This document shows, piece by piece, positions 38,555 through 56,500 of a stretch of DNA of 64,000 bases. The notes beneath the pieces are model-generated. The model did no database searches, had not been told where the DNA came from, and was given only the letters and a program-made list of their open reading frames with translations. The translations under genes were made by a program, and so were the position numbers. The DNA comes from a virus, in the IMG/VR virus record IMGVR_UViG_3300033066_000693, positions 192,001-256,000 of that record; one strand, written 5' to 3'. How positions within the stretch are numbered: position 1 is the stretch's first letter; each line of letters begins with the position of its first letter.

Positions 38555-40030
38555 CTATCTCCTAAGAACCACTGTTACGTCTTGGCCTGCAATGGTAGAG
38601 CCAATCTGATCTACATCTATTGTCAGAATATCTCCTTCCGCAAGACTTGTTGTATCAAAACTTGTTTGAGTGCCAGTTGTACTGTTTGCTGCTATTTTTA
38701 TTCTGTTTGCTTGAGTAGAGTCCCAGATAGATGTTCCATTCTTATTGATATCCATGATTAAATCTGCACCAGTTGGACCTGTTTTAGCATAAGCAAAACA
38801 CTTAGTAATAGTACAATCATTGGCTATGATAATTGCGTTAGTTTTGTTTACTCCTGTAGTAATATTTTCTCCTACTGCAAGAACAAAAGTAGTAAACGAT
38901 GGAGAACTTGCCCCTGAATACCCACTTCGTCCAGAATAACCGCTAAAGCCTGAAGATCCTATGGTTCCTATGTATCCTGAGAAGCCTGAAGATCCACTAT
39001 AAGCACTGTATCCTGAAAAACCGCTTATTCCCGAGTAGGCAGAGAAACCCGATGGTCCACTGTATCCTGAGAAGCCGCTGTAAGCAGAGTAACCGCTTCT
39101 GCCGCTATAAGCAGAGTAACCACTAAAGCCTGACGTACCAGAGTAAGCGGAATATCCGCTGAAGCCCGATGGTCCGCTATAACCGCTGAATGCAGAGTAG
39201 CCGCTAAAACCACTTATACCGCTATAAGCAGAATAGCCGCTAAAGCCCGAAGGCCCACTATATCCTGAAAAACCGCTCGGTCCTGAATAGCCGCTGAAAC
39301 CGCTCTCTCCGTCAACGCCAATAATTCCGTCTGCGCCCTTATAACCGCTAAAGCCTGAAGGACCAGAGTAACCGCTAAAGCCGCTCGGTCCTGAATATCC
39401 TGAGAAGCCGGAGATTCCTTGCGTTCCAATGTAACCGCTAAAGCCAGAATAACCGCTGTATCCTGAGAAAGATGAATAGCCAGAAAAACCGCTATAAGCG
39501 GAATATCCGCTGAAGCCCGATATTCCGCTATATCCTGAAAAGCCGCTCGGTCCTGAGTAGCCGCTAAAGCCTGAAGGTCCGCTGTAGCCGCTGAAACCAC
39601 TTGGTCCTGAGTAGCCGCTGAAGCCTGAGATACCGCTATAAGCAGAGTAGCCGCTGTAGCCTGATACTCCGCTGCCAGAATAACCACTAAAACCGCTTAT
39701 GCCTGAGTAAGCCGAGTATCCTGAGAAACCACTCGGTCCTGAGTATCCACTAAAGCCAGACTGAGAAGAATAACCAGAATAGCCAGATAAACCTATATAA
39801 CCACTGTAGCCGGAAAAACCTTGCCCTGAATATCCTGAAAAGCCAGAAGCTCCGTCTCCGCCTCCTCCAAAAGAAATGGTTTTATTTTCCCATTTTCCAG
39901 TAACAGAATTATAAACTAGAACTTGACCATTAGACAGAGACGACAGTGTTACATCAGACTGTTCTCGAAGACCATCAGGAATAAAAAAGGCGGAAGACAA
40001 TAAAGATCTCCTTATTGGAGACTTTACCAT
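38555..40030 (-). CDS. Collagen-like (Gly-X-Ser)n fibre protein, 491 aa, with non-collagenous C-terminal domain
   Basis: About 300 aa of GFS/GYS/GPS/GIS triplets (...SGYSGPSGFSGYSAYSGISGFSGYS...) followed by a roughly 120-aa globular C-terminus. Confidence 0.8.
   Translation of the reverse strand: MVKSPIRRSLLSSAFFIPDGLREQSDVTLSSLSNGQVLVYNSVTGKWENKTISFGGGGDGASGFSGYSGQGFSGYSGYIGLSGYSGYSSQSGFSGYSGPSGFSGYSAYSGISGFSGYSGSGVSGYSGYSAYSGISGFSGYSGPSGFSGYSGPSGFSGYSGPSGFSGYSGISGFSGYSAYSGFSGYSSFSGYSGYSGFSGYIGTQGISGFSGYSGPSGFSGYSGPSGFSGYKGADGIIGVDGESGFSGYSGPSGFSGYSGPSGFSGYSAYSGISGFSGYSAFSGYSGPSGFSGYSAYSGTSGFSGYSAYSGRSGYSAYSGFSGYSGPSGFSAYSGISGFSGYSAYSGSSGFSGYIGTIGSSGFSGYSGRSGYSGASSPSFTTFVLAVGENITTGVNKTNAIIIANDCTITKCFAYAKTGPTGADLIMDINKNGTSIWDSTQANRIKIAANSTTGTQTSFDTTSLAEGDILTIDVDQIGSTIAGQDVTVVLRR
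38930..39845 (-). repeat. Collagen-like triplet repeat region (coding)
   Basis: Nucleotide-level repetition of ccgctgaagcc / gagtagccgct units encoding G-[FYPIT]-S. Confidence 0.8.
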
Positions 40031-40074: not shown

Positions 40075-40557
40075 CTAATTAGCTATGGATTCTATTGCGG
40101 CTACCACTACATCTGGATCAACAAAAGCTTGTTCGGTAAATACGTCCTGTTCCCAAAGTTCAAACTGCTGAGGCCGCAAAAAGACTCTATCTTTTAGCAA
40201 GTTGATGTTTTGCGCATAGCCGAAAATGTTTGGATCAGAACGACCAAACACAGCTACGCCTCTCTTGCCATGATAAGTGGCGAAATGATTGAAAAAATTG
40301 TCTACCGAAGCCCATGTTGCTGCCTCTGACAACAACTTGGCAAGATCCTTCAATTTTAGGCCTTGCTTGACCTCATCTGCCCCAATAGGGCCTTCCCCCG
40401 GAACGCCAACCTGAATGACACGATAGCCTTTAGACTGCAACTGCTTGGTTACTTCTTTCCACCAAGGATAGTTCTTTGGATTAACTTTGTCAGGGTCAGT
40501 GGGCTTTGCTTTTCTTAGCTTCTTAGAATAAGGACTGATGATTATTGTTTTCTTCAT
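40075..40557 (-). CDS. C-terminal (donor-binding) half of a GT9 heptosyltransferase-like glycosyltransferase, as a separate 160-aa ORF
   Basis: LKLKDLAKLLSEAATWASVDNFFNHFATYHGKRGVAVFGRSDPNIFGY matches the GT9 C-domain pattern (L.eL.all..a.l.ig.DSG..HlAaA.g.P.v.lFG.tdP); ATGA overlap with the upstream ORF, whose C-terminus is the GT9 N-domain. Confidence 0.5.
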   Translation of the reverse strand: MKKTIIISPYSKKLRKAKPTDPDKVNPKNYPWWKEVTKQLQSKGYRVIQVGVPGEGPIGADEVKQGLKLKDLAKLLSEAATWASVDNFFNHFATYHGKRGVAVFGRSDPNIFGYAQNINLLKDRVFLRPQQFELWEQDVFTEQAFVDPDVVVAAIESIAN

Positions 40558-41603
40558 AGTAGCATCTTTCGATAAGCGTCAACAAGTCTTCCCTTCCAAT
40601 TATGCTCAATCATGAAACGGTAAATGTTATGCTTGTCTTGGTCAGGGTCTATAAGCTTAGAATCTGCTATGCTGATAAGCTCAACTCCGTCTTCTCCCTC
40701 AAAGACTTCTGGATAACATACCCCAAGAACAATTGGCTGGTCCTTGTATTTCTCTTTCAGTTCTGGCAGCATCATCTTGAAGGCATAATGATCTCCCAAG
40801 CCGCAATCCAAGACTACAAGCTTGTCATGCATCGTCTGAATGCCATACTCTTCAAGTTTGCGATGGAATACCTTCTCGTCATGCTCCCACAAGAAGGATG
40901 ACTCATAAGAGCGGATACCCCCTCCCGGAGAACGAAGATGCCATATAACAGCCTTAGGGTCTACAATAAGCTTGAAGCCCGCCCTTCGCATTCCATAGGT
41001 AAACAGAGTCTCTTCTCTATGACCAACAGGAGAAAGTTCCATACAATAGCCATGCTTTGCCGCAGACTTGCGAAACAAAAAGCTGTTATTCAAATGGTCA
41101 ACTTCTCTTGCGCCTTCAAATCTAAACCATTGAACATTTGGTCTATTGAATATATGCTCTATCTTGTTAGACGCAAAATGAGAAAGATGAGTAACTTCAC
41201 CGGGAACAAGGATTAATCCGCTAACTGCTCCAACGTCGTCAGCTATGTTACTTACAAGGACTTCTAGAACATTTGATTCAGGAACATCATCGTCGTCTAC
41301 TCGCCATATCCATTCGGTTTTGGCTATCTCAATAGCTGCCTGATGATTATGGACTTGTCCTTTTCGTTGTCCGTAAATTACTTCGCAAGGTATACCCTTT
41401 GAATGGAACATGGCAAATAGGCTAGAGTAAAGAGGGTCCGGCCTCAAGTCTCTTTGCTCGCCATCGTCAAATATGATAACCCTTGCTGGCTTATAGGTTT
41501 GATTAGCGACCGCTGTAAGAGCAAGAGGTAGCGTTGTATGATACCTGTCTTTTGTAGATATCTCTACTGTTACTTCCACTCGTTTTGGTTTCTCATTCTC
41601 CAT
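40554..41603 (-). CDS. GT2 (GT-A fold) glycosyltransferase fused to a GT9 N-terminal domain
   Basis: N-terminal half ISTKDRYHTTLPLALTAVANQTYKPARVIIFDDGEQ (GT2 with DDG); C-terminal KLVVLDCGLGDHYAFKMMLPELKEKYKDQPIVLGV resembles the GT9 N-domain (kIlvirl.alGDvl.t.P.l.alk..yP.a.i). Confidence 0.55.
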   Translation of the reverse strand: MENEKPKRVEVTVEISTKDRYHTTLPLALTAVANQTYKPARVIIFDDGEQRDLRPDPLYSSLFAMFHSKGIPCEVIYGQRKGQVHNHQAAIEIAKTEWIWRVDDDDVPESNVLEVLVSNIADDVGAVSGLILVPGEVTHLSHFASNKIEHIFNRPNVQWFRFEGAREVDHLNNSFLFRKSAAKHGYCMELSPVGHREETLFTYGMRRAGFKLIVDPKAVIWHLRSPGGGIRSYESSFLWEHDEKVFHRKLEEYGIQTMHDKLVVLDCGLGDHYAFKMMLPELKEKYKDQPIVLGVCYPEVFEGEDGVELISIADSKLIDPDQDKHNIYRFMIEHNWKGRLVDAYRKMLL

Positions 41604-42312
41604 GCGTCATCTTTCTTGCTAGAGCATTAGCCCTAAACAGGCTTTCAAAAGTTCCTGCATCTGTCCACTCTCCAGAAACCATCTGGAAAGGCACCTCTCC
41701 TATCTGTAGATACTGATTGTTTACATCGGTAATTTCAAGCTCGCCTCTTGCTGAGGGTTTGAGTTTCTTTATGATGCTAAAAACTCGCCAATCGTAGATA
41801 TACAACCCAGTTACAACAAGATCAGAAACGAAAGCCTTTGGCTTTTCTACTATCGAGATAATCGTATCATTAGCAACTTGCGCAACTCCAAACCGTTCAG
41901 GAGTATTGCTCTTCTTCAAGAAAAGTTTCGCTCCCCATTTGAAATCAGAAACGTCAAACGTGTCTTCGAAGATATTGTCTCCGAGGATTACGGCAACAGA
42001 ATCTACCTTGCCTACAAAATCTTCTCCTAAGCTCAAAGCTTGAGCGATACCACCAGCCTCGTCTTGTATGCGATAGGAAATGCTTACTCCAAAATCTTTA
42101 CCGCTGCCAAGTAACTGAGCAATATGACCGCAATGCTCTATGCCAGAAACAATGAGTATCTCTCGTATACCCATCTTGATAAGAGTCTCAAGCGGATACA
42201 TGATCATTGGCTTGGAATACACAGGCAACAAGTGTTTGTTCGTGACCTTGCAGAGGGGATAAAGTCTTGAACCTGTACCACCCGCCAGTATAATGCCTTT
42301 TTTTACTGACAT
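41593..42312 (-). CDS. rmlA: Glucose-1-phosphate thymidylyltransferase (RmlA-like, short form)
   Basis: KGIILAGGTGSRLYPL...NKHLLPVYSKPMIMYPL...ILGDNIF matches the RmlA/RfbA N-terminal signature. Confidence 0.75.
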   Translation of the reverse strand: MSVKKGIILAGGTGSRLYPLCKVTNKHLLPVYSKPMIMYPLETLIKMGIREILIVSGIEHCGHIAQLLGSGKDFGVSISYRIQDEAGGIAQALSLGEDFVGKVDSVAVILGDNIFEDTFDVSDFKWGAKLFLKKSNTPERFGVAQVANDTIISIVEKPKAFVSDLVVTGLYIYDWRVFSIIKKLKPSARGELEITDVNNQYLQIGEVPFQMVSGEWTDAGTFESLFRANALARKMTHGE

Positions 42313-43160
42313 ATCTTCTCCAATTCTTTATATTTATCATACTTTCTTTCCAACCTATTTTCTCCAACATTACTGTATATCCATTGACATATTTTCAATA
42401 CTTGAAATCTTCCAGTATATCTCATCATATAATGATTAGCTTTTTTATTTTGACACCAGAGTTTGGTGGTTTCGATCCCAACGTACATCACAAGTCTTTT
42501 TTGGATTTCAAGTAGCAGTTCTTTAGTTCCAACAATTTGAAAACAATAGGAGTTTCTTTGCGGATAAATAAGAATACTTCCATCTCCTTCGAATACGCCT
42601 CTGATAAAAGCCCTATCTAAAAATTCTCCTTTTATACAATTAAGATATTCCTCGGCTCCGCTCTTCGTTGGTTTTATTCCGTACTCTATTAGCTTCGAAC
42701 GCAACACTGAAGAAGATATTTTGAGTAATTTCGCCTTGTATGTCTTATTTGTTTTCTTTAGATATGTACTAGAATTAAGAATTGGTCCTGAGTATCCAAA
42801 GAATTTTCTAATATACTCAAGAATAGATTGGTCTTTTATCGCTACTTTGCATCCAAAACAATTTTCATTCTTATGCACAAAACCGTCAGAAAGAAGCCAG
42901 CCTAAAATCCATGCTACATCTGTTGTTACATTATCTAGAGCATCTTCTCTTAAGGTATGAATTTGATTAGAAAGAAAACGATCTTTAGGCAATGACGCAA
43001 TCCCCAGCTTTTTCATTCTTTGAGATATAAACCACTGCGAAACTCCAAACTCTTTGGCTATAGATTTCTGCGATCTTTTCTCCTCAAAGTATTTTTTCCT
43101 GAGATCTAATTCAGAAAGCTCTATTTTCTTATTCTTTGGCATAAGCCATTTATCGACCAA
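42303..43160 (-). CDS. LAGLIDADG homing endonuclease (double-motif) with N-terminal helix-turn-helix, free-standing
   Basis: Motifs VAWILGWLLSDGFV and FIRGVFEGDGSI; HTH-like SIAKEFGVSQWFISQRMKKLGI; inserted between rmlA and the rmlD-like gene. The track start is TTG; the real start is more likely the ATG of MPKNKK 18 nt inside. Confidence 0.65.
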   Translation of the reverse strand: MVDKWLMPKNKKIELSELDLRKKYFEEKRSQKSIAKEFGVSQWFISQRMKKLGIASLPKDRFLSNQIHTLREDALDNVTTDVAWILGWLLSDGFVHKNENCFGCKVAIKDQSILEYIRKFFGYSGPILNSSTYLKKTNKTYKAKLLKISSSVLRSKLIEYGIKPTKSGAEEYLNCIKGEFLDRAFIRGVFEGDGSILIYPQRNSYCFQIVGTKELLLEIQKRLVMYVGIETTKLWCQNKKANHYMMRYTGRFQVLKICQWIYSNVGENRLERKYDKYKELEKICQ

Positions 43161-43239
43161 TACAGCAAATAACTTTAGTTTGTTACCTTAGTAAGAGGCA
43201 TGAGTCGGCTGCCAGTACCGCCAGCTAAAATGATTCCCT

Positions 43240-44100
43240 TCATGCAACCTCCAAGAGGCGTTCTGCTTCAACATACTTTCTTATGCAGGTATCGACAGCG
43301 GTAATCGCTGATCTCAACTGAATACCCTCGTCTTCGAGCTTTCTCGTAGAAAGAACGCAGTTAGACCGACGAACTTTCGTTATCGTGTCAAGTTCTTCTT
43401 CTGAAATGAGAGAGTATTTCAGTTTCTTTCCCGAAATCTCTTCATACATTTTGAGGATTTGCGAATGGAATATAGAGCCTTTGTTTACTACATTGTAAAT
43501 GCCAGAAACATCTTTCTCTATGAGAGTTTTTGCTACATAAAGAAGATCTGGAATGTATGTAATAGAGTTTGCAGATTCAACAATCTTGGAATAGCCTAAG
43601 AGCTTGGTCAACAAATTGCGAGGGTCTGGCTTATCTCCCAATGGCATTCGTATGCGAAGTTGAAGAGCATTCTGTCTGTTCAGGTATCGTTCAGAAACTA
43701 TCTTGGTCCAACTGTAATAACTACCGTCATAGTTTGGAGCGGTCTTTTCGGAATACCCTTCGCCATAATCGTCCCCTTGATACACGCAACCGCTTCCTAT
43801 ATGAACCATTTTCGCTTTATAAGCACGGCATGCTGTTTGAATATATGACGGAACCACAACATTCGAGAAAAACGTTGCCTGCCTATTTTCCTCGCTAGCT
43901 TCGCACCAATCTATATTAGGTCTTCCAGTCTTTCCTAAGCAGTTAATGACATGGGTTGGCCTGTAGTGATAGATTCGACTCATGATTTGGTTATAATCAG
44001 TAATGTACTCGGTATACAGACTTGTAGGATAGAATGTTTGAAAAAACTCGGCAAACTGCTTGCCAAGGTACCCTCCACCAATAACCATTATTGTATACAT
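43240..44100 (-). CDS. NAD(P)-dependent sugar-nucleotide reductase, RmlD-like (dTDP-4-keto-6-deoxyhexose reductase family)
   Basis: Rossmann MVIGGGYLG, catalytic YYSWTK (YxxxK), length 286 aa typical of RmlD; adjacent to rmlB. Confidence 0.55.
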   Translation of the reverse strand: MYTIMVIGGGYLGKQFAEFFQTFYPTSLYTEYITDYNQIMSRIYHYRPTHVINCLGKTGRPNIDWCEASEENRQATFFSNVVVPSYIQTACRAYKAKMVHIGSGCVYQGDDYGEGYSEKTAPNYDGSYYSWTKIVSERYLNRQNALQLRIRMPLGDKPDPRNLLTKLLGYSKIVESANSITYIPDLLYVAKTLIEKDVSGIYNVVNKGSIFHSQILKMYEEISGKKLKYSLISEEELDTITKVRRSNCVLSTRKLEDEGIQLRSAITAVDTCIRKYVEAERLLEVA

Positions 44101-44103
44101 AGC

Positions 44104-45066
44104 TTATTCTTTCAGCATATTACCCCACCATTCGTTATTGGAGAGGTACCATTCGATTGTCGCATCTAAACTAGTATCGAACCCGCTCTTAGGTTTCCAC
44201 CCAAGCTCATGAAGCTTGGTACAATCCAATGAATATCGCAAATCATGACCAAGCCTATCTCCAACAAACTTGATACTAGACTCATTCTTGCCCATCTTTT
44301 TGAGCAAACGTTTGGTAAGATCTATATTACTTACCTCATTACCTCCGCCTATGTTGTATACCTGACCTGCCACTCCATTCTCAATGACAAATGAAATAGC
44401 ATCGCAGTTGTCTTCAACATATATCCAATCTCTTACATTCTTTCCGCTTCCATAAACAGGAACTTGTTCATTTCTAGATAACTTGGCTATAAATAGAGGT
44501 ATGATCTTCTCTGGGAACTGATAAGGTCCAAAGTTGTTTGAAGATCTAGTTATGATTACTGGCTGCTTAAAAGTATGCATTGCTGAAAAACACAGCATCT
44601 CAGCAGCAGCCTTGGAAGCGCTATACGGAGAAGACGGACGAAGTATGTCCTCTTCTGTAGAAGACTTGTGATGAAACTCAAGAGATCCGTATACCTCGTC
44701 AGTAGATATTTGAACAAACAAGCTAGCATTCTTTTCTCTGGCAGCACCAAGCATAAGCGCAGTACCCAGAACATTTGTATGAAGAAACGGTAGCTCATTC
44801 TGGATAGAGCGATCTACATGACTCTCTGCTGCAAAGTTAACAACTATATCGCCTGAACGGATAACGTCCTTTGCCGTAAATCCGTCGCATATGTCCGCTC
44901 GAACAAACGTATAGTTTGGCAAAACATCCAACTCTCTCTTTGTTTCAAGGCTTGCAGCATAGGTCATTTTATCAATATTGACAACGCTATGCGTCCCTTT
45001 GGAAAGAATGCTTCTAATAAAGTTACTACCAATGAATCCTAATCCGCCTGTTACTACTATATTCAT
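44104..45066 (-). CDS. rmlB: dTDP-glucose 4,6-dehydratase (RmlB)
   Basis: IVVTGGLGFIGSNF, FAAESHVDRSI, STDEVYG, SPYSASKAAAE (YxxxK), RDWIYVEDN: canonical RmlB motifs in order. Confidence 0.85.
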   Translation of the reverse strand: MNIVVTGGLGFIGSNFIRSILSKGTHSVVNIDKMTYAASLETKRELDVLPNYTFVRADICDGFTAKDVIRSGDIVVNFAAESHVDRSIQNELPFLHTNVLGTALMLGAAREKNASLFVQISTDEVYGSLEFHHKSSTEEDILRPSSPYSASKAAAEMLCFSAMHTFKQPVIITRSSNNFGPYQFPEKIIPLFIAKLSRNEQVPVYGSGKNVRDWIYVEDNCDAISFVIENGVAGQVYNIGGGNEVSNIDLTKRLLKKMGKNESSIKFVGDRLGHDLRYSLDCTKLHELGWKPKSGFDTSLDATIEWYLSNNEWWGNMLKE

Positions 45067-48000
45067 GAGTTGTTCTTCTTATGAAAGCGATCAGAAATCT
45101 CAGGAGTCCTCTTGGACGCCATGTTTGAAGAGAACTTTACCGTATAGGTAATCTTCGAATCGCTGTTTTTCTTGAACTTGTATCCAGCCTTTGCGATTCT
45201 CACCCACATGTCCCAATCTTCAATAGAATCCAAAGAACTATCAAATCCTCCAACAGACAGACACTTAGCTTTATGAACTACGCTTGAGATGTATATAAAT
45301 GGACAACGACGCATAAACTCCAAGCCGGGATACTCCGGAGGATTTGGTATTCCGTCAGGATAAGCTATAGAACCGTCTGTGAATTCGTGCCTAACTTCTG
45401 AATAGACCAAATCAGCCTCTTGGAGAGCCTTTATTTGAGAAGATAGATGGTTTTCGTCCCAAACATCGTCGGAATCGCAATAAGCTATATATTCAAAGCC
45501 TCCGCTCTCTTTTATCTTGTCCAGAGCGGCGTTTCTGGCGGAGCTTACTCCTCCATTGGGTTTCTCAATAATCTTGATGCGAGAATCTTTTTTGCGCCCC
45601 AAAATGGTAGAAGCTCTATTCTCAAGGCTAGAGCCGTCGTCTACCAAGAACAGAACCCAATCCCTATATGTTTGGCTTACAATAGCCATTGTACTAGAAA
45701 CAAGCATGTCTTTATCATTGTAGTAAGGCATAACAATCGCTACTCTGCCGCTCTTAATCCACTTCTTCTGCAAAAACCTCTCTTGGTTCTCAACAATGAA
45801 CTTTGGATATGTTGAGTCTATGCTAACCAAGACTGGAACATGAGGAGGATTATCTCTACCGAGAGCTTCTTTACAGCTATCTATGTTCTGCTGAATCTTC
45901 TCGGCATTGGTGAACTCTGGTTTGTTAAGTTCTTGATGGGCATAAGATTCAAGCTTTTCTACAATCTTCTCGGCTCCGCCCATCCATCCAAAATGCCATC
46001 CTCCGTCTGCTATACGATCATTCTCTGTAATCGTTTGATATCTAAGGTCAGTTAGCCCATAGTTGACTTTCTTCAAGTTGCCGAATGTAGTTATGCGACT
46101 ATAAGCTCCCGGCCCCGGCTTGCTTATGCCAACGCTCATATTGAGATAGTAGTTGTACTGGTGCTGTTCAAAGTACATCCAGTCTTTCTGACCTTTGTAC
46201 TCTTGTATTTTTGAGCCTCTAGGAATCTCGTCAAGATCAGAAAGGATAATGATGTCGTTCTCTTGGCATTGCAGCAAAGAGTTGATCATAAAGTTGCGCT
46301 GATAATGCTCTCTAACCCAAGCATTATCTGTTTGAGGACACTCGTTTATGATGACATGGATAATCTTAGGCCAGAATCTTCTAAATCTTTCCTTGTTCTC
46401 ATTGAAGTAAAGGGGCTTTGGCTTACCAGAATGCGTAACATTCATTTCGCATAAAACGAAGTGATCTACGTAAGGGTCTAGCTCGTTCAATCTAACCTCA
46501 AGTATGTCTAGCTCATTGAAGAAACAAAAGCAATCATAAACCTTTGGCTTAGGCTTTGCTTTTTCCTTACGCACAAACTTGAAGTTCTTGGTATTTATGA
46601 GCTTTGGATCAAGCGGGATAAATATGTCATAAGCACCTGATGCAGGATTGAACATCCAGAAGCCCATTTGATGTTCTTGAATAGGAACGCAATCATAGCC
46701 TAGTTTTTCAATATACTCTCTCAGCATACTGAAGTTGTATTCCTTGTTTGGATGCAGAGTGTTATGGAACTCTGCAAAGATTGTCTTGCATCGCAATATG
46801 TCTCTAGGATCTGCTTTTAGCAGTATGTCATACTCAGAACCCTCGCAATCTATCTTAAGTACAACGTCATTATCTCCCGGGAAATACTCCAACGCCTGCG
46901 CAAGGCTGATAGCCTTGATTTTCGATCCATTTCCGTTTTCTGACAACTTGGCTACGGGACCGCCTCCTTCTAGAACAACCTCTGTCGTGCCGGGCGAAGA
47001 AACAGCCACATGAACAGGATGAACATTCGAGTATTGCTTCATGTTACTTACTAAGAGCTTATATGTTTCTTCAATTGGTTCAAACGAGACTATCTTTTTG
47101 GCTCCAAGCGTAGTACACAGATAAGAGAACATTCCTACATTGCCGCCAATGTCAAGAACGCTCTTGTTCTCTACGTCTTCTCTAAATACGCTATATGAGT
47201 TTAGGCCAATCACTTCATGAAAAAGGTTGCTCTCATACGCAAGAAATGTTTCTCGAATATCAATAGCTTTTCTAGGAACAAATATCAAACCTTTCTCTTC
47301 GAACTTCTTCAGATTGTCTCTTACAAATTTAGGATACGTTTCGTCAATTTGAACCGGGGAGAAAGACAAATCTCTTCCTAGAACGTCTTTGCCATTCTCT
47401 ATGGACTTAACTACGTTGTCGTCGTTGTTGATTCTGTCGTTATTGAACTCGTCATGCGCCCAGTTATTGATCTTGTCTTTGATATGGTCTTTGTCTCCTA
47501 AGAAGCTGAAGTGCCATCCTGCGTCTTCAAATACATGCTTGTAGCCATAGTCATTTTCCCCTCGGAAGTATTGAAGATTACGACCTTTCAGTTCTGCGTA
47601 TGGGAAGATTCTTACCTTATACCACTTGATGGGAGTTTCCAAATTGAGTCTGTAATAGAACAGTCTTGTTTGCAGACAACATATACCCATACTTATATTG
47701 TACTGCTTTACAACAGAAGCCCTAGGAATCTCGTCTACGTCAGAAAGAATGATGATATCATTGTCCTTGCAGTCCTTCAGCCCTCTTGCTATTTGATTGC
47801 GCTGATAAGGCTCTCGAACCCATGTATCCGTAGTAGGAGGAAACTCCTCAACGATTACATGCTCAATCTTGTGCAAGAACTTCTTGAACCGCTCTTTGTT
47901 CTGCTCAAAGTAAAGAGGCTTTGGCTTGCCCTGATGACTATATCTAGCCTCAGCCAGAACGAACTTGTCTACAACGCTATCTAGCTCGTTCAAGCGTATT

Positions 48001-51000
48001 TCTAGAACGTCTAGCTCATTGAAGAACATAAAACAGTCATATACTTTTGGCTTGCTAGGACTAACCCTATCTATAATTGTCAATCCATTGCAGTTATCAA
48101 ATATCTCCCTTATCCTCCATTCCTTATTTTCAGCCAAGAAATCATTAATTGCGTCAACAAGCCCCTTAGAATAGTTCTCTTTGAACTTCCAATCCCACTC
48201 TTCTCCGTCTTGGCTCTTATGCCCAAAAGTAACAGTATCATGCATTATGATGTACTTCTTTACTTTGGACGAGTGCATTCGTAGTTCAGCTAAAAGCTGA
48301 TCATACGAGTGCTTGGTATCAATGAATAGCAAGTCGGTAGGCTCTATCTCTATTTGCAGGCAATCTCTGGCTTCAAATGTGAAGTTGATTCCTTTGCGGC
48401 TTGCCTCGGTAGCCACCTTCTCCACAGCAGGACAATAGAACTTGTCATAAGATCTCATAATCTTAGGAAGTCCTGCAAACAAGCCCCATGTTGAGTTGCC
48501 AGTTCTAACCCCAAACTCTGTTATGTGTTCGCACTCTTGCGCATACTTCTTAAGAGTTGGAAGATGCTCATAGATGTCTCCTGATATCCCCTCATGATTA
48601 GTGCTTCTCTTCTCGTACTCTTCAAGGGTTGGGTCTTTATGCTTTTGCTTGATATAGAGAGCGTTCTTTGGCGATTTCTCCTCGTCATTGCTTGTATAAA
48701 TCTCTCTGAATGTTCCGCCTCCCTTGTGAACCATAGGGAACAAGAACAATCTCTCGTCATTCCCGGGAGACTTATCACTGTATGTGATATCATGAGGAAC
48801 TTCTACAAGAGCATAGCCTTCGTCTGCCGCTCGCTTGCAGTAATCAGCGTCTTCATGATAACCAATACCAAACTCCTCGTCTAGGTATCCTATCTTAGAG
48901 ATTACTTCTCGCTTGATCATAGCGCAGAAGAAAAGAAGATACTCGCTCTGTATATCGCTTCTCCATGACTTCCTAGCCCCTGTAATCCCAACTTTAGGAT
49001 TAGAAAAAGGAGCAGACAATACAGATATCCAAGATCTATCTAGTATCTCTGTGTCATTGTTGAGAAGTATAACATACTCGCCTTCCGCAAGCTTCATGCC
49101 TGCATTCGTTGGCTTAACGTATCCCAATGCCTTATCAAACCAGACAAGCTTGAAAGAAGACCCAAGACTCTCTACGTAGGCTTTCGTGCCATCGGTACAT
49201 CCGTTTGCGACAACGATAACCTCGACATTGCTCATGTCTGTATACTTGATAATGCTTTCAATACAAGGCCTAAGATGATCGTCTAGATGGTTGTATGTTG
49301 GAATGACAATGGAATACTTTGGCTTAATCTTCTTGCTAGGCTTTTCTGCCTCGACTCTCATGTTATAGCCCCAATGAGATGTGAACTGAGGCTCAAGCCT
49401 CTTGAGGTTCGTAAACCCAACGCCTCCAAGATGGTCAAACATGATTTCCTCATACCATCCAAATAGATGAGGATTGCTAACCTTTGGGTCATAGACAGTT
49501 GTACCGTATATGCAGTTGAGGAGAGTATACCTATCTATTTTGTTAGCTGCTTCAAAATGGCGACAGAGTTCTAGAATGTCTGGCAACTCAAGACATAGCT
49601 TTCCTCCGGGTGCCAAAACTCTAAACCATTCAGCAAGGATTGCTGACGCCTCATAGCAAGAAAAATGCTCAAAGACATGGATAGCAGATATCTCGTCAAT
49701 GCTATTGTCTGGGTATTCTAGCTTACGAGCGTCCATTTTTACGTCTGCGGCTGGGCTATACAAGTCAATATTGATGTACCCCGGCATAAGAACGTCGCCG
49801 CATCCTATGTTTAGCTTCTTTTTCTTATTGCCGTATCTATCAAGCAAGATAGCCTCGTTTCTTGCAACGATTTCCGTCCATTTTGGAACGCCATGCACAG
49901 TTTGGCTAGATTTGTGCCAAATAGGGAAATGAATCACATGGTCAGATGCGTCTCTAAGTCTATTATACTTTACGTCATTTGGAACTTGAACAACATCAAG
50001 ATTGGCTTTATGTAACTTCCAACAGTAGTCAATATCCTCGCCATATCCGGGATTAAAGATCTCGTCCAACAATCCAAACTTCTCAATGATGGTATCTTTC
50101 AACATTACGCAGAAAAACAACAAGAACTCGAAGCTTGTCTCGGCATGAAAGTTCTTAGCTGCGCCAGTTATTCCGGTCTTTGGATTATCTATGTAAGGCT
50201 TTTCCAACATTCTAAGCCATTCACTCTTGGGTTGTTCAAGAAGTATGTTGTCATTGTTTAATAGAACAACATACTCTCCCATAGAGATCTTGATTCCTTC
50301 ATTAGTTGCCTTTGTGTAACCAGCGGGGTCAGTCATCCAGAATAGCTTAAATGGATGACCCAATCCTCGAACATAGTCCTTAGTTCCGTCAGTACAGCCA
50401 TTAGCGACAACAATAACTTCAACCTCGTCAAGGTTAGTGTACTTGATAATGCTTTCGAGACATGGCTTGAGACAGTCATCCAAATGGTTATAAGTCGGGA
50501 TAATGATGGAATACTTTGGCTTTGGGTGCTTAGTAATCACAGATTTTCTATTGTGGTCAGTCATCTTGATGTCCTTAAACGTTATTTTGTCTTTGTGATA
50601 GATAGGAAACTCTCTATTGACATTAGGATTATGAAGTAGAGAGTCTGTATCAAAATCTAGATCATAGTGAATGTCAGTAGGGATTTGCTTTATCAGATAT
50701 CCGGCTTTAGAGAGACGAACGCAAAAATCAATGTCCTCTTCATACCCTAAGCCAAATCCCTCGTCCAATATTCCTATCTTATCGAAAATCGACCGTCGAA
50801 TCATGGCACAAAAGAAAACCATGTACGGTTGTCTGAATATCGTCTTACCATTGTTCCATGCTAAGCGAATATCTTTGTTTGGTCCAGTTATACCAGTCTT
50901 AGGATTTTCAATGAAAGGCTTCTCAAGCATATTAAGCCAATCGTTCTTCTTTTGAGGACAAAGAACAACGTCATTGTTGAGCAGTACAACAAACTCTCCC

Positions 51001-51251
51001 CTTGACGCTCGGATACCAGCGTTGGTGGGCTTGATATACCCCTCAGGATTTTTCATCCAAATCAGCTTAAATGTTGGACCAAGACTCTCTACAAAAGCTT
51101 TCGTGCCATCAGTACAGCCATTGGCAACGACAATGACCTCAACCTCGTCAAGGTTAGTGTACTTGATAATGCTTTCGAGACATGGCTTGAGACAGTCATC
51201 CAAATGGTTATAAGTCGGGATGACAATAGAATACTTTACGCTAGAACTCAT
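45063..51251 (-). CDS. 2062-aa multidomain glycosyltransferase/methyltransferase polyprotein
   Basis: Approximate domain map: GT2a 50577-51239, GT2b 49842-50516, class-I SAM MTase 49347-49817 (LNIGCGDVL...HVFEHF), GT2c 48672-49319, Methyltransf_24-like O-MTase 48072-48599 (EFGVRTGNSTWGLFAGLP...LLFIDTKHSY), GT17-like 47262-48050 (YDCFMFFNELDVLEIRLNELD...GKPKPLYF), FkbM-type MTase 46617-47234 (VLDIGGNVGMFS...KIDCEGSEYDIL), second GT17-like 45762-46550, GT2d 45066-45746 (VAIVMPYYN...LVDDGS...CDSDD). Confidence 0.7.
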   Translation of the reverse strand: MSSSVKYSIVIPTYNHLDDCLKPCLESIIKYTNLDEVEVIVVANGCTDGTKAFVESLGPTFKLIWMKNPEGYIKPTNAGIRASRGEFVVLLNNDVVLCPQKKNDWLNMLEKPFIENPKTGITGPNKDIRLAWNNGKTIFRQPYMVFFCAMIRRSIFDKIGILDEGFGLGYEEDIDFCVRLSKAGYLIKQIPTDIHYDLDFDTDSLLHNPNVNREFPIYHKDKITFKDIKMTDHNRKSVITKHPKPKYSIIIPTYNHLDDCLKPCLESIIKYTNLDEVEVIVVANGCTDGTKDYVRGLGHPFKLFWMTDPAGYTKATNEGIKISMGEYVVLLNNDNILLEQPKSEWLRMLEKPYIDNPKTGITGAAKNFHAETSFEFLLFFCVMLKDTIIEKFGLLDEIFNPGYGEDIDYCWKLHKANLDVVQVPNDVKYNRLRDASDHVIHFPIWHKSSQTVHGVPKWTEIVARNEAILLDRYGNKKKKLNIGCGDVLMPGYINIDLYSPAADVKMDARKLEYPDNSIDEISAIHVFEHFSCYEASAILAEWFRVLAPGGKLCLELPDILELCRHFEAANKIDRYTLLNCIYGTTVYDPKVSNPHLFGWYEEIMFDHLGGVGFTNLKRLEPQFTSHWGYNMRVEAEKPSKKIKPKYSIVIPTYNHLDDHLRPCIESIIKYTDMSNVEVIVVANGCTDGTKAYVESLGSSFKLVWFDKALGYVKPTNAGMKLAEGEYVILLNNDTEILDRSWISVLSAPFSNPKVGITGARKSWRSDIQSEYLLFFCAMIKREVISKIGYLDEEFGIGYHEDADYCKRAADEGYALVEVPHDITYSDKSPGNDERLFLFPMVHKGGGTFREIYTSNDEEKSPKNALYIKQKHKDPTLEEYEKRSTNHEGISGDIYEHLPTLKKYAQECEHITEFGVRTGNSTWGLFAGLPKIMRSYDKFYCPAVEKVATEASRKGINFTFEARDCLQIEIEPTDLLFIDTKHSYDQLLAELRMHSSKVKKYIIMHDTVTFGHKSQDGEEWDWKFKENYSKGLVDAINDFLAENKEWRIREIFDNCNGLTIIDRVSPSKPKVYDCFMFFNELDVLEIRLNELDSVVDKFVLAEARYSHQGKPKPLYFEQNKERFKKFLHKIEHVIVEEFPPTTDTWVREPYQRNQIARGLKDCKDNDIIILSDVDEIPRASVVKQYNISMGICCLQTRLFYYRLNLETPIKWYKVRIFPYAELKGRNLQYFRGENDYGYKHVFEDAGWHFSFLGDKDHIKDKINNWAHDEFNNDRINNDDNVVKSIENGKDVLGRDLSFSPVQIDETYPKFVRDNLKKFEEKGLIFVPRKAIDIRETFLAYESNLFHEVIGLNSYSVFREDVENKSVLDIGGNVGMFSYLCTTLGAKKIVSFEPIEETYKLLVSNMKQYSNVHPVHVAVSSPGTTEVVLEGGGPVAKLSENGNGSKIKAISLAQALEYFPGDNDVVLKIDCEGSEYDILLKADPRDILRCKTIFAEFHNTLHPNKEYNFSMLREYIEKLGYDCVPIQEHQMGFWMFNPASGAYDIFIPLDPKLINTKNFKFVRKEKAKPKPKVYDCFCFFNELDILEVRLNELDPYVDHFVLCEMNVTHSGKPKPLYFNENKERFRRFWPKIIHVIINECPQTDNAWVREHYQRNFMINSLLQCQENDIIILSDLDEIPRGSKIQEYKGQKDWMYFEQHQYNYYLNMSVGISKPGPGAYSRITTFGNLKKVNYGLTDLRYQTITENDRIADGGWHFGWMGGAEKIVEKLESYAHQELNKPEFTNAEKIQQNIDSCKEALGRDNPPHVPVLVSIDSTYPKFIVENQERFLQKKWIKSGRVAIVMPYYNDKDMLVSSTMAIVSQTYRDWVLFLVDDGSSLENRASTILGRKKDSRIKIIEKPNGGVSSARNAALDKIKESGGFEYIAYCDSDDVWDENHLSSQIKALQEADLVYSEVRHEFTDGSIAYPDGIPNPPEYPGLEFMRRCPFIYISSVVHKAKCLSVGGFDSSLDSIEDWDMWVRIAKAGYKFKKNSDSKITYTVKFSSNMASKRTPEISDRFHKKNNS
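50421..51240 (-). repeat. Intragenic duplication: about 100-nt near-identical segments at 50421-50520 and 51141-51240 (start of the GT2a and GT2b modules)
   Basis: tcaacctcgtcaaggttagtgtacttgataatgctttcgagacatggcttgagacagtcatccaaatggttataagtcggga occurs twice almost verbatim. Confidence 0.7.
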
Positions 51252-52915: not shown

Positions 52916-53527
52916 TTAAAATCTCCTAAGACTAGAATCTACAAACTTCAAAGCATTCTCATTTACTGGCAAGCCTACAAAATTTGCTATTCCTTGAATT
53001 GTTATCTCAGAATTATCTACTAATTGATCAAACTCTACAATTAACTTGGGGACATTAGCAATTGCAAGTTGCGCATTATGTACCTCAATAAGTTTTGCAT
53101 ACCGCTCTTCAGTATTAGGATCGTTTGCTCTAGCTCTCCAACTTTCCTTACTTTTTTCAAGAGGTCGCTGCGTGATAATAAGTTTTATATCAGGCAAATT
53201 CAAAAACTCATCAGCTAAAAATCCAATAAGATGGTTCTTGACTCCCCATATTATTCCTCTGCTCATTCGATCTTGAATGATTCTCCTAATCCTCAATCGT
53301 CCATCATTATTTGAATCAATAGGTAGAGTCCATGTAATCGGATCATTTTCATTAATTAGCTCTAAGGCTTCAGTTATAATTCGATCAACAAAAAATCCTT
53401 TAGCATTCCATTCTGGATCTGATTCAAATAAATCATCTCCCATATGAACACCTAAATTATGTAATATTCCAGCGATACAACTAGTTCCACTTCTTGGTAA
53501 GCCTAAAACTAAAACGCATGTTCCCAT
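52916..53527 (-). CDS. Sulfotransferase (Stf0/Sulfotransfer_3-like)
   Basis: N-terminal VLVLGLPRSGTSCIAGIL matches the PAPS 5'-phosphosulfate-binding loop (PRSGTT/PKSGTT); later IITQRPLEKSKES fits the 3'-phosphate-binding R-x(n)-S element; about 200 aa, as in small bacterial sulfotransferases. Confidence 0.5.
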   Translation of the reverse strand: MGTCVLVLGLPRSGTSCIAGILHNLGVHMGDDLFESDPEWNAKGFFVDRIITEALELINENDPITWTLPIDSNNDGRLRIRRIIQDRMSRGIIWGVKNHLIGFLADEFLNLPDIKLIITQRPLEKSKESWRARANDPNTEERYAKLIEVHNAQLAIANVPKLIVEFDQLVDNSEITIQGIANFVGLPVNENALKFVDSSLRRF

Positions 53528-53536
53528 ATTTCGCCT

Positions 53537-56500
53537 TTAGGTATGAGTGATATAAGTCAGATCAGGGAAGAAATACATTCTATCAGCATGAGTAGCAATA
53601 CCGAGTACCTGAATTACATTATCGGTTGCGCTAGGCTGAGTTTGAGTCAAGGCTCCTGCTGTGGTTGAAAGATAAACTATACCGCCGACAGTCCAAGCCC
53701 ATGCATCATTACGAGCTATTCCATGCAGCAAAATATTGCCAGCATTGCTTGATGTTATTGTAGCTGTAGCCATTCCCATACACGGATAAGTAGCTGAACC
53801 ATCTGCGTCAGCCTTCCATACAAGACCATCAGATTTTAGATAAACAACATCTCCGAATGCTAGATTTTCTCCTGCTGTCAAACTGATTATTAAGCCATTT
53901 GCTGTTACGTCTGATCCCGGAACCGCTGTAAGAGACAAAGCTCCTGAATAACCGCTGTAAGCTGAGTATCCCGAGAAGCCTGACGAACCTTGCGTTCCAA
54001 TATATCCTGAGAAGCCGCTATAAGCCGAGTAACCGCTTCGACCACTATAAGCTGAGTAACCAGAGAAGCCGCTTATACCAGAGTAAGCAGAATAGCCACT
54101 GAAGCCGCTTAGACCGCTATATCCTGAGAAGCCACTATCCCCGCATATGGCTGTTATACAGAAATTTGCTCTTAGAAGAGTAATTACATCCGTATTTATC
54201 ATATTCTTAATGCGTATATCAACCGTGTCTGTTGCAGACAATGACAATACGCCGGTAAGAGATACTGAAAATATTCCGGTATTAGGATCTGTTGTTGTTG
54301 TTCTAGTGACAATGTTAGATTGAATACCATTTACAAAAACAGAGAAATTGAAGTTGACCGCAGTAATGGCACTATTAAAAGACAATGAAGCGTTTACTAA
54401 GTAAGCCCCATCTGATCCTGCAATAGCTTGACCAGCAGAATTTGTAAATCCTACTTGCGAACTTAGAGTTAGACCACTAAGAGAGTCCCAATCACCAGAT
54501 CCATCATATACCCAACCGCTTACTCCATCAGTCGTATCAACTAGTTCAATATAAGAAGCTACTCCCGGAGTCGCTGCCGCTCCGCTATAACCACTGAAAG
54601 CAGAGTAACCACTAAAGCCAGAGAAGCCGCTGTAAGCTGAATAACCGCTGCGACCGCTATAAGCAGAGTAGCCAGAGAAGCCTGAGACGCCTGAGTAAGC
54701 GGAGTAACCGCTGAAGCCAGAAGGCCCGCTGTAGCCGCTGAAACCGCTCGGTCCTGAATAACCACTAAAGCCAGAAGGCCCGCTGTAGCCTGAGAAGCCG
54801 CTTATGCCAGAATAAGCTGAATAGCCTGATCGCCCACTGTACCCTGAGAAGCCACTAGCTCCATCAACGCCAATAATTCCATCTGATCCTTTATATCCGC
54901 TGAAGCCGCTTATACCAGAATAAGCAGAGTAACCGCTGAAGCCAGAGATACCGCTATAAGCAGAGTAGCCCGAGAAGCCTGAAGATCCCTGCGGTCCTAT
55001 GTAACCAGAGAAACCGCTGTAGCCAGATTTTCCTGAGTATCCGCTGAATCCAGATCCACCGTCTGCCCAACTTGTATTACCAAATCCATCTGTTCTTAGG
55101 AACTGACCATTGACTCCGCCGCTTGTAGGAGGGGAGAATGAAGAACTATAAGTTCCTGCCTGTGGATATATTGAAACGGTACCAGTATTTCCGCTGTTGT
55201 ATAAAGAGAAACCAATACCATCTCTAAATTGAACAGGATTACTTGCGCTGAATCTCCATGTTGTTTCGTTAACATCATTTACTTCTAGTTGTAACTGCGA
55301 AACATCTCCGATTTTATCCACTCTCAAAATATCATAACTAAAATCACCGCTATTTGGGCTTTGTTTGATTATGAGTGATGAAGTATCATTACTTGTCGGA
55401 GTAATTGTATTACGAGTTGGAGAACTAGGAGCAACAAGAACTGCCTCGTTCAAATTGGCAGAATAACCGCTGTATCCTGATACTCCAATATAACCGCTGT
55501 ATCCTGAGAAACCGCTATAAGCAGAATAACCACTCTTACCGCTGTAGCCTGAGAAGCCGCTATAAGCAGAATAACCACTAAAGCCAGAAGAACCTTGCGG
55601 CCCAACGTAGCCTGAGAAGCCAGAAGACGCAGCCGCGCCGTCAGCGCCTTTATCTCCTGTTCTTGTAAAGCTTATTACAACCACATCATCAGTCGAGAAC
55701 AAAAAGCCAGATACAAAACTGCCTGTAACATAGGTTACCGGGATAAACAAGCCCCATGTATTGCTTCCGTCAGCAACTACCGATCCTGTTATTTGAAAAT
55801 CAGCAAAAACTGACGAGTTATCTTCTTTGAAAACTCTAATAGATCCCTTAGTAGTATTAGTGCTATCATCAATAGCATTAATCCATGTGGTTATATCTGT
55901 TCCAGATGAATTGAGAGGACTAATACCAACAAATCCTGCTAAAGTAGGATCTGCTGTTGTATTACCTATAGTTGTATTAAATGCCAAAACGCCCGGATAT
56001 GGTCCTGAGCCAGATATTCCCGACTCCTCGTATATATACTCTTGACTATCTCCGCCAAATGCCCCTATTAGACCGCTAAAGCCTGAGAATCCGCTTGTTC
56101 CAGTTCCACTATAACCTGAGAAGCCGCTATAGCCTGAAAATGCTGAATAGCCCGAGAAAGCCGAGTACCCGGAGAAGCCTGAGTAAGCAGAGTAACCGCT
56201 CTTGCCGCTGTAGCCTGAGAATGCAGAATAGCCTGATACTCCGCTGTAACCGCTAAAGCCTGACGTACCGCTGTAAGCTGAATATCCTGAGAAACCTGAG
56301 ATACCTTGCGCACCAATGTAACCACTGAAGCCCGAAGAACCTTGCGTTCCTATGTAACCTGAGAAGCCTGAAGAGCCAGAGTAAGCAGAGTATCCGCTTA
56401 TGCCACTGTAAGCTGAGTAACCCGAGAAACCGCTTATGCCACTGTAAGCTGAATATCCGCTAGAACTAGCCGAGCCGTCTAATCCCTTATCCCCTGCGCG

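What the first reader, a model, noticed from the sequence alone, without database searches (positions are those of the whole stretch)
40075..41603. GT9 glycosyltransferase split at its interdomain linker across two overlapping ORFs, with the N-half fused to a GT2
The 349-aa ORF is a GT2 followed by what looks like the N-terminal Rossmann domain of a GT9 heptosyltransferase-like enzyme (KLVVLDCGLGDHYAFKMMLPELK...). It ends in CTATGAAG, where the stop TGA overlaps the ATG of the next ORF, which encodes the matching GT9 C-terminal donor-binding domain. Either GT-B halves are made as separate chains that reassemble (unusual), or a -1 frameshift (programmed or a sequencing error) restores a single GT2-GT9 bifunctional enzyme.
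Basis: partly seen in the sequence, partly recalled or inferred. Interest (0 to 1): 0.55.

Follow-up and report, generated by a model that had tools for sequence, protein, structure and literature searches.

The report
Phage glycosyltransferase split across two genes
A phage gene pair encodes a heptosyltransferase-like enzyme in two separate chains, with the small catalytic half attached to the end of another sugar-adding enzyme; the arrangement is conserved in hundreds of phages, so it is real, not a sequencing error.

Summary
On the minus strand, a 349-aa ORF (40554-41603) and a 160-aa ORF (40075-40557) overlap by ATGA.

The last ~94 aa of the 349-aa protein (the "tail") follow a GT2 domain. 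They fold as a three-stranded alpha/beta unit whose best PDB matches are again GT9 enzymes. The tail carries an invariant G-x-G-D-H where GT9 has its catalytic Asp13.

The split is not an artefact or a frameshift site:
- Across the window plus 87 related loci, 56 have the ATGA overlap, 11 have short gaps, 17 have a whole gene inserted between the halves, and 4 are fused.
- Other relatives include multidomain single-chain forms and one stand-alone tail-linker-B protein.

The family is essentially phage-specific and sits among tail-fibre and sugar-pathway genes.

Best reading: a two-chain mini-GT9 whose catalytic base and donor site lie on different polypeptides, tethered to a GT2, probably decorating virion fibres. 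It resembles Alg13/Alg14 but in a different family, with a truncated N-half. The complex, donor sugar and acceptor are untested.

The parts
40554..41603 (-). ORF-A, 349 aa: GT2 (GT-A) domain followed by a ~94-aa C-terminal 'tail'
   Evidence: ORF list. Pfam PF00535 E 2.9e-14. More than 1000 homologues, nearly all 340-350 aa at 97-98% coverage.
40899..41573 (-). GT2 catalytic domain of ORF-A (approximately residues 11-235), with FDDGE and RVDDDD motifs
   Evidence: Pfam PF00535 and PF13641 stretches 17-159 and 29-224. The DDG and RxDDD motifs are conserved in the family consensus.
40557..40838 (-). Tail (ORF-A residues 256-349): truncated GT9-like N-half, beta-alpha-beta-alpha-beta plus helices
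40788..40802 (-). G268-L-G-D271-H272 motif after the first strand; D271 is the proposed catalytic base, equivalent to WaaC Asp13
   Evidence: G13, G15 and D16 are invariant and H17 is at least 90% conserved in 55 tails. hhalign places this GD on D13 of both WaaF and WaaC, but not significantly (E 0.076 and 0.15). The role of Asp13 is taken from bioRxiv 10.1101/2021.06.16.448588.
40554..40557 (-). ATGA junction: the TGA stop of ORF-A overlaps the ATG of ORF-B, the arrangement usually read as a translational-coupling signature
   Evidence: Sequence. The same ATGA occurs in 56 of 88 loci.
40075..40557 (-). ORF-B, 160 aa: GT9 C-terminal nucleotide-sugar-binding domain made as its own chain
40285..40476 (-). 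Donor-site residues of ORF-B: K28 (40474-40476), E55 (40393-40395), D86 (40300-40302), H91 (40285-40287)
   Evidence: All four are invariant in the paired alignment, as K122, E149, D180 and H185. They align with WaaC K192, E222, D261 and H266.
41593..45066 (-). Context: RmlA-like nucleotidyltransferase (41593-42312), LAGLIDADG endonuclease (42303-43160), RmlD-like reductase (43240-44100), RmlB-like 4,6-dehydratase (44104-45066)
   Evidence: Pfam and PHROGs.
45063..51251 (-). Context: 2062-aa multi-glycosyltransferase with four GT2 stretches, GT17 and methyltransferase domains. In the relative L002 the equivalent protein carries the GT2+tail module at its C-terminus.
   Evidence: Pfam. L002 architecture.
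38555..40030 (-). Context: collagen-like tail-fibre protein with Ser-rich G-x-S repeats directly downstream of ORF-B; candidate acceptor
   Evidence: Pfam Collagen E 2e-35. PHROG tail-fibre families. Translation. The acceptor role is inference only.

Best explanation
ORF-A and ORF-B encode a natively two-chain enzyme. ORF-B supplies the GT9-type C-terminal domain that binds the nucleotide-sugar donor. The last ~94 residues of ORF-A supply a pared-down GT9-type N-half that carries the catalytic Asp, in a G-x-G-D-H loop after the first strand. A complete active site therefore forms only when the tail of A docks onto B. Because the tail is covalently attached to a GT2 domain, docking yields a two-active-site complex (GT-A plus mini GT-B) able to add two sugars in succession. 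The ATGA overlap is the arrangement usually associated with translational coupling, which would favour matched synthesis of the two chains; that is inferred. The pair is a phage-specific module that travels with tail-fibre genes and sugar-nucleotide, methyl- and sulfo-transferase genes. The most likely substrate is therefore a virion protein, here Ser-rich collagen-like fibres, rather than lipid A-Kdo. Shown: the split is conserved; B is a GT9 C-domain; the tail resembles GT9 structurally and has an invariant GD; tail and B co-occur almost obligatorily and are sometimes fused. Inferred: physical docking, catalysis in trans, ADP-heptose-like donor, and virion fibre as acceptor.
For: 1. Split conserved. 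The 120 best B homologues listed (of 125) are 140-182 aa, and A homologues are nearly all 340-350 aa. The cultured Methylophilaceae phage P19250A has the same pair with the same 4-nt overlap.
2. Junction census of 88 loci: 56 ATGA overlaps, 11 gaps of 2-21 nt, 17 with an inserted gene, 4 fused.
3. Co-occurrence. All 88 loci found through B contain a tail. Of 80 loci found through the tail, 78 have B downstream on the same strand.
4. Fusion evidence. P0216 (509 aa) and about 25 single-chain cluster representatives of 448-1700 aa contain tail and B in the order tail then B. P0241 is a complete 252-aa tail-linker-B protein with no GT2.
5. B is a GT9 C-domain.
7. Invariant residues map to HepI Asp13 on the tail and to K192, E222, D261 and H266 on B.
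8. Virus-specific. At least 592 loci in IMG/VR, against 3 small MAG contigs in 185,579 species genomes.
9. Context. The pair sits among tail fibres and tail genes in small and jumbo phages.
Confidence: 0.68

Rival explanations
1. A sequencing or assembly indel split an ordinary single GT2-GT9 gene.
For: A single-base change at the ATGA would join the frames. Genuinely fused relatives exist (P0216; L012, L017, L019 and L024).
Against: The same split lengths occur in over 100 independent homologues of each ORF. An identical 160-aa protein is on 7 contigs from two data sources. 84 of 88 loci are split, with varied junctions including whole inserted genes. Natural fusions carry a linker: 7-21 residues between the tail and B profile matches in the four fused IMG/VR loci and roughly 17 residues by eye in P0216. 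The window has no linker.
Confidence: 0.01
2. A programmed -1 ribosomal frameshift, or stop readthrough, at the junction makes a fused GT2-GT9 polypeptide as the functional product.
For: ORF-B lies in the -1 frame of ORF-A and overlaps its stop codon. Single-chain forms evidently work in some phages.
Against: The printed junction sequences differ among loci and share no recognisable slippery heptamer (ATTTATGATT, TAATATGATT, AAAAATGATA and others). In 11 loci the genes are separated by 2-21 nt, and in six of these B's start codon is in frame with the tail ORF. Several of these gaps contain purine-rich, Shine-Dalgarno-like stretches by eye. In 17 loci a complete gene (methyltransferase, F5/8-type-C protein, DUF6794) lies between them. 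ATGA overlaps are common in this window.
Confidence: 0.03
3. The tail is only a docking or oligomerisation domain, or belongs functionally to the GT2. B is a self-sufficient or non-catalytic sugar-nucleotide-binding subunit, and no composite active site forms.
For: Sequence similarity of the tail to the GT9 N-domain is not significant. The tail lacks half of the N-domain. The modelled tail position does not superpose on GT9 crystal structures. In L060 and L111, B is fused to other GT2 or methyltransferase modules, which fits a tethering role.
Against: G-x-G-D is invariant in the tails at the topological position of the GT9 catalytic Asp. The tail alone retrieves GT9 enzymes as best structural matches. 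GT-B C-domains are not known to catalyse transfer without an N-domain (established knowledge of the GT-B fold). A stand-alone tail-linker-B protein exists without any GT2.
Confidence: 0.13
4. The split enzyme is real, but it modifies the host envelope (LPS core, O-antigen or capsule, for superinfection exclusion or receptor masking) or phage DNA, not virion proteins.
For: Characterised GT9 enzymes are mostly LPS heptosyltransferases. JGI labels B homologues 'ADP-heptose:LPS heptosyltransferase'. Phage GTs are known to serotype-convert hosts and to glycosylate DNA (PMC12619734).
Against: No transmembrane segment is evident by eye in A or B. The HepI acceptor-binding part of the N-domain is missing. 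The genes sit inside tail or tail-fibre modules even in ~40-kb phages. They are accompanied by sugar O-methyl- and sulfotransferases and collagen-like fibres. TibC, a protein O-heptosyltransferase, is the best structural match of the tail, though only marginally ahead of the others.
Confidence: 0.25

Closest known systems
GT9 heptosyltransferases: E. coli WaaC/HepI (2H1F, 2GT1, 6DFE), WaaF/HepII (1PSW), Veillonella GT9 (3TOV), and the protein O-heptosyltransferase TibC (4RAP)
   Different: Known GT9 enzymes are single chains of about 320-390 aa with a full ~165-aa N-domain. Here the N-half is ~94 aa (three strands), sits on a different polypeptide, and is fused behind a GT2. The family is virus-specific. 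Donor and acceptor are unknown.
Alg13/Alg14 (eukaryotes) and EpsF/EpsE (bacteria and archaea): split GT-B enzymes related to MurG (GT1/GT28)
   Same: The N-terminal (acceptor side) and C-terminal (donor side) halves of a GT-B are encoded by separate genes, and the active site lies between the two proteins. Most members are split, with multiple independent re-fusions (PMC8993221; PMC9527342). The census here shows the same pattern.
   Different: This is a different GT family: the Pfam hit is PF01075, with no Alg14 or Glyco_tran_28_C hit. The N-half here is much smaller, soluble rather than a membrane anchor, and covalently attached to a GT-A enzyme. The system is encoded by phages.
Mycobacteriophage virion glycosylation (Freeman et al. 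2023, cited in PMC12619734) and glycosylated collagen-like surface proteins such as B. anthracis BclA (PMC6222408)
   Same: Phage-encoded GTs accompany a glycosylated virion. In the window, collagen-like repeat proteins sit next to rhamnose-type sugar pathway genes. That mycobacteriophage GT genes sit beside structural genes, and that the rml operon lies next to bclA, is from my own recollection.
   Different: Those systems use ordinary single-chain GTs. Glycosylation of the fibres here is not shown.

Membership tests
CAZy GT9 / Pfam PF01075 (heptosyltransferase family) | Sequence match to the family profile above the curated threshold | tested here: met
   ORF-B scores 28.3 bits against a gathering cut-off of 22, profile positions 118-218. 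A PDB profile search hits WaaC at E 1e-4. hhalign to WaaC gives 90.8% probability. ORF-A has no PF01075 hit.
CAZy GT9 / Pfam PF01075 | GT-B C-terminal Rossmann domain with the GT9 donor-site residues (HepI T187/T188, K192, E222, D261, H266) | tested here: met
CAZy GT9 / Pfam PF01075 | N-terminal domain carrying the strictly conserved catalytic Asp (HepI Asp13) after the first strand | tested here: inconclusive
CAZy GT9 / Pfam PF01075 | Single polypeptide with a full-size (~165 aa, seven-stranded) N-terminal acceptor domain joined by a linker to the C-domain | tested here: not met
   The N-half is ~94 aa with three strands. It is on a separate chain in 84 of 88 loci.
CAZy GT9 / Pfam PF01075 | Transfers heptose from ADP-heptose | not testable with these tools
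   Heptose-contacting residues (D261 and H266 equivalents) are conserved. No heptose-pathway gene was found in the scanned window ORFs. A biochemical assay is needed.
Split GT-B enzymes of the Alg13/Alg14 - EpsF/EpsE type | N- and C-halves of one GT-B encoded by separate genes, with occasional re-fusions | tested here: met
   Census: 84 split and 4 fused among 88 loci. About 25 fused cluster representatives appear among the top hits of an exhaustive search.
Split GT-B enzymes of the Alg13/Alg14 - EpsF/EpsE type | Homology to Alg14 (PF08660) and Alg13/Glyco_tran_28_C (PF04101) | tested here: not met
Split GT-B enzymes of the Alg13/Alg14 - EpsF/EpsE type | Obligate heterodimer with the active site formed between the two proteins | not testable with these tools
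   Inferred only, from near-obligate co-occurrence, fusions, and catalytic and donor residues lying on different chains.
GT2 (Pfam PF00535), for the N-terminal part of ORF-A | Profile match above threshold and a DxD-type motif | tested here: met
   PF00535 scores 53.8 bits against a cut-off of 23.3. FDDGE and RVDDDD are present and conserved in the family consensus.
Programmed -1 ribosomal frameshift sites | Conserved slippery heptamer and conserved frame relation at the junction across homologues | tested here: not met
   The junction sequences vary. In six of the 11 short-gap loci B's start is in frame with the tail ORF, and 17 loci have an intervening gene.

The most novel reading that the evidence does not exclude
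The tail/B pair is a split-enzyme 'snap fastener': a GT9-derived active site that forms only when two glycosyltransferase chains dock. Phages would use it to assemble interchangeable multi-enzyme glycosylation lines. The tail always sits at the C-terminus of proteins carrying from one GT2 up to several GT and methyltransferase modules. B is either free or fused to other GT2 or methyltransferase modules. The mini-GT9 itself would be a phage-encoded protein O-glycosyl (possibly heptosyl) transferase, of the TibC/AAH kind, that starts glycans on Ser-rich collagen-like tail fibres. That would make heavily glycosylated fibres a widespread feature of freshwater phages.
Probability: 0.15. Interest if true: 0.7.

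Novelty: new variant of a known kind. Interest (0 to 1): 0.45.

Why it matters
If the two chains really complete one active site, this would extend the Alg13/Alg14 principle to GT9. I found no description of a split GT9 in the literature searches made here. It would also define a minimal GT-B N-half (~90 aa, three strands plus the catalytic Asp), which is useful for understanding what a GT-B needs for catalysis and for engineering split or modular glycosyltransferases. It flags a large phage-specific glycosylation module that is unannotated in the only cultured phage found carrying it: at least 592 IMG/VR loci, and about 1000 protein clusters at 50% identity. The module sits in tail-fibre regions, which points to virion glycosylation outside the mycobacteriophages. 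The cultured Methylophilaceae phage P19250A carries the pair, so the idea is directly testable.

Tried and rejected
1. MAFFT alignments mixing full-length fusions with separate A and B homologues (A1, A3) mis-stacked B onto A or onto the tails and were discarded. Adding a dozen natural fusions as scaffold fixed this (A4, A5).
3. blastn of the region against GenBank phages found nothing. Only tblastn found P19250A.
4. PHROGs has no family for B.
5. phmmer of ORF-A against PDB sequences found nothing.
6. I suspected that the 117-aa gene between the multi-GT and B in L002 was a free-standing tail. It is DUF6794 and unrelated. The tail is at the end of the 1596-aa protein.
7. Profile and hhalign comparisons of tail+B with WaaC and WaaF matched only B.
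9. Literature searches for a phage or split heptosyltransferase returned nothing relevant.
10. Sequencing error and programmed frameshift were considered and rejected (see rival explanations).

Full report
**Observation.** The two ORFs are real and lie on the minus strand: ORF-A 40554..41603 (349 aa) and ORF-B 40075..40557 (160 aa). The minus-strand junction reads CTA CTA TGA, with the ATG of ORF-B starting one base before the stop. This is an ATGA 4-nt overlap. Pfam assigns GT2 to ORF-A (PF00535, residues 17-159, E 2.9e-14). It assigns GT9 to ORF-B (PF01075, profile positions 118-218 of 247, 28.3 bits against a cut-off of 22). NCBIfam's best, weak, hits for ORF-B are the LPS heptosyltransferases RfaC and heptosyltransferase I. 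The overlap alone is unremarkable: by my reading of the ORF coordinates, three other adjacent minus-strand gene pairs in the window also overlap by 4 nt.

**Not an artefact.**
- A search of 5.8 billion proteins with ORF-B returned 125 hits. The 120 best listed are all 140-182 aa.
- An identical 160-aa protein occurs on 7 contigs from two sources.
- ORF-A returned more than 1000 hits, nearly all 340-350 aa and covering 97-98% of the query. The GT2-plus-tail architecture is therefore conserved.
- The one cultured example is Methylophilaceae phage P19250A. Its genes 25 (322 aa, 41% identical to A) and 26 (147 aa, 41% identical to B) show the same 4-nt overlap. Both are annotated as hypothetical and lie just downstream of the tape-measure gene.

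**Junction census.** I built HMMs for the tail (ORF-A residues 256-349) and for B. I then scanned 87 related loci plus the window.
- Every locus has both parts.
- 56 have the ATGA overlap.
- 11 have gaps of 2-21 nt. In six of these B's start codon is in frame with the tail ORF, and several gaps contain purine-rich, Shine-Dalgarno-like stretches by eye.
- 17 have 350-1158 nt between the parts, containing a complete extra gene. These are a 163-aa SAM methyltransferase with ATGA overlaps on both sides (L025 type), an F5/8-type-C protein (L021), or DUF6794 (L002).
- 4 are single fused ORFs with 7-21 residues between the tail and B profile matches.

The varied junctions, and in particular whole genes between the halves, exclude a conserved frameshift or readthrough mechanism. 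They show that two separate chains are the normal state.

Starting instead from the tail, 78 of 80 viral loci have B downstream on the same strand. One ends at the contig edge, and one (L143) lacks B within 3.5 kb. In 163 of 164 non-fused locus entries, from two partly overlapping scans, the tail ends within 7 residues of its protein's C-terminus.

**What ORF-B is.**
- A profile of paired tail+B sequences hits WaaC (2H1F, 2GT1, 6DFE) residues 180-295 at E 1e-4, and WaaF at E 0.065.
- hhalign gives 90.8% probability to WaaC.
- An AF2 model of the window's tail+B concatenation is confident: pLDDT 95.5, pTM 0.84. It used an alignment scaffolded by natural fusions (A5; checked).
- Foldseek's top 27 hits are also all GT9.

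**What the tail is.**
- Folded alone (55 tails, pLDDT 95.8), it is a beta-alpha-beta-alpha-beta unit followed by helices.
- The tail begins K-L-V-V-L-D-C-G-L-G-D-H. WaaC begins R-V-L-I-V-K-T-S-S-M-G-D and WaaF begins K-I-L-V-I-G-P-S-W-V-G-D.
- hhalign chooses exactly this register, GD on Asp13, for both enzymes, but the E-values (0.15 and 0.076) are not significant.
- G13, G15 and D16 of the tail are invariant in 55 sequences, and H17 is at least 90% conserved.

**Residue mapping.** According to the HepI literature (bioRxiv 10.1101/2021.06.16.448588):
- Thr187/188 and Lys192 hold the pyrophosphate.
- Glu222 holds the ribose.
- Asp261 and His266 contact the heptose.

In this family the equivalents are A-D271 on one chain and B-K28, E55, D86 and H91 on the other. 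All are invariant. The base and the donor site are therefore encoded on different polypeptides.

**Fusions and architectures.**
- P0216 (509 aa) is GT2-tail-linker-B on a 20-kb contig.
- A profile search found a dozen more fusions, many truncated at contig ends.
- An exhaustive phmmer search of 1.84 billion cluster representatives with P0241 found 965 relatives. About 25 are single-chain proteins of 448-1700 aa in which tail and B match as one collinear stretch.
- P0241 is a complete 252-aa gene, tail-linker-B, with a divergent neighbour upstream and no GT2. The tail therefore belongs with B rather than with the GT2.
- The tail also ends much larger proteins, for example the 1596-aa multi-GT in L002.
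- B is sometimes fused behind another GT2 (L060) or behind GT2-methyltransferase (L111) while the tail stays on a separate protein. It is also fused to downstream domains.
- The pattern of mostly split with repeated re-fusion mirrors what is described for Alg14/13 and EpsE/F (PMC8993221).

**Distribution and context.**
- The pair is essentially viral. There are at least 592 confirmed loci in IMG/VR. In one genome for each of 185,579 prokaryotic species there are only 3, all on small MAG contigs.
- In the window it closes a glycosylation island: a 2062-aa protein with four GT2 stretches, GT17 and methyltransferases; RmlB-, RmlD- and RmlA-like enzymes; and a LAGLIDADG endonuclease.
- The island is flanked by collagen-like fibre proteins with Ser-rich G-x-S repeats. 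A sulfotransferase-like gene and two GT4 genes lie elsewhere in the window.
- In ~19-58-kb phage contigs, the pair sits between large structural proteins and Peptidase_S74 tail fibres.

**Mechanism proposed.**
- ORF-B binds the nucleotide-sugar.
- The C-terminal tail of ORF-A docks on it and contributes the catalytic Asp.
- The complex then has a GT-A and a mini GT-B active site side by side and adds successive sugars.
- The ATGA overlap is the arrangement usually associated with translational coupling. Coupling is inferred, not shown.
- Neither protein shows an obvious membrane segment by eye, and the part of the GT9 N-domain that binds Kdo2-lipid A in HepI is missing. Together with the structural-module context, this makes a virion protein (collagen-like fibres) the likeliest acceptor. 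A host envelope target remains a live alternative.
- Conserved heptose-contacting residues hint at an ADP-heptose-type donor taken from the host. This is a hint only.

**Limits.**
- Homology of the tail to the GT9 N-domain rests on fold ranking and a motif, not on significant sequence statistics.
- In the concatenated model, only the C-domain superposes on GT9 crystals. Foldseek's full-length alignments have TMq 0.37-0.47 and rmsd about 18 A.
- Whether the tail occupies the canonical N-domain position is therefore unresolved. The linker-less concatenation may distort it.
- No coordinates were available to measure the distance from the GD loop to the donor site.
- The complex, the activity, the donor and the acceptor are all untested.

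**Comparison and novelty.** The system works like Alg13/Alg14-EpsF/EpsE, a GT-B split into an acceptor-side and a donor-side chain. It is not a member of that family, because there is no Alg14 or Glyco_tran_28_C signal. It is GT9-like in its C-domain and probably in its N-half, but it fails the single-chain, full-N-domain architecture of GT9. I found no description of a split GT9 or of this phage module. It is best filed as a new variant of a known kind. Interest is moderate: a neat, widespread and testable case rather than a new principle.

Noticed in passing
window 38555-40030, 53537-57187, 59192-63793 (all minus strand): Three collagen-like fibre proteins. The first is almost entirely G-[FY]-S / G-P-S triplets, with Ser at every third position. 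The third also has a PA14 carbohydrate-binding domain. The Ser-rich triplets could be O-glycosylation sites for the surrounding GT island.
   Followed up: partly
window 45063-51251 (minus): A 2062-aa single protein with four GT2 stretches, a GT17 domain, and FkbM-, CmcI- and Methyltransf_11-type methyltransferase domains. In the relative L002, the homologous 1596-aa protein ends with the GT2+tail module that is a separate gene here.
   Followed up: partly
window 42303-43160 and 27220-28029 (minus): Two LAGLIDADG homing-endonuclease genes. The first is wedged between the RmlA-like and RmlD-like genes and overlaps the RmlA-like gene by 10 nt.
   Followed up: no
window 26157-27230 (minus): Strong match (E 2e-57) to Pfam Volactin, which I recall (own knowledge, not checked) as an archaeal actin-like cytoskeletal family, inside what looks like a jumbo phage.
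   Followed up: no
window 41593-45066 (minus): RmlA-, RmlB- and RmlD-like genes are present, but no RmlC (3,5-epimerase) was seen among the neighbours scanned. The dTDP-sugar made here may therefore not be L-rhamnose.
   Followed up: no
window 52916-53527 (minus); also 4207-5304 and 22766-23935: A sulfotransferase-like protein and two GT4-type glycosyltransferases add to an unusually rich glycan-tailoring toolkit in one 64-kb stretch.
   Followed up: no
L025 2843-3334 (also L028, L031-L033, L050, L051, L061): In one sub-clade, a 163-aa SAM-dependent methyltransferase gene is inserted exactly between the tail-bearing gene and B, with ATGA overlaps on both sides.
   Followed up: partly
L060 3005-4525; L111 3722-5710: B is fused behind a different GT2 (L060) or behind GT2-methyltransferase (L111), while the tail remains on a separate upstream protein. 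This suggests the tail/B contact can tether two multi-domain GT chains.
   Followed up: partly
L169, L170, L171 (MAG contigs of Mucilaginibacter, Aenigmatarchaeota, Nitrososphaeria): These are the only 'cellular' hits to the module. All are small contigs (4.6-13.6 kb) in metagenome bins of unrelated taxa, so they are probably phage contigs mis-binned into MAGs.
   Followed up: no
L143 (IMGVR_UViG_3300037493_005911): The one locus where a GT2+tail protein has no B gene within 3.5 kb downstream.
   Followed up: no
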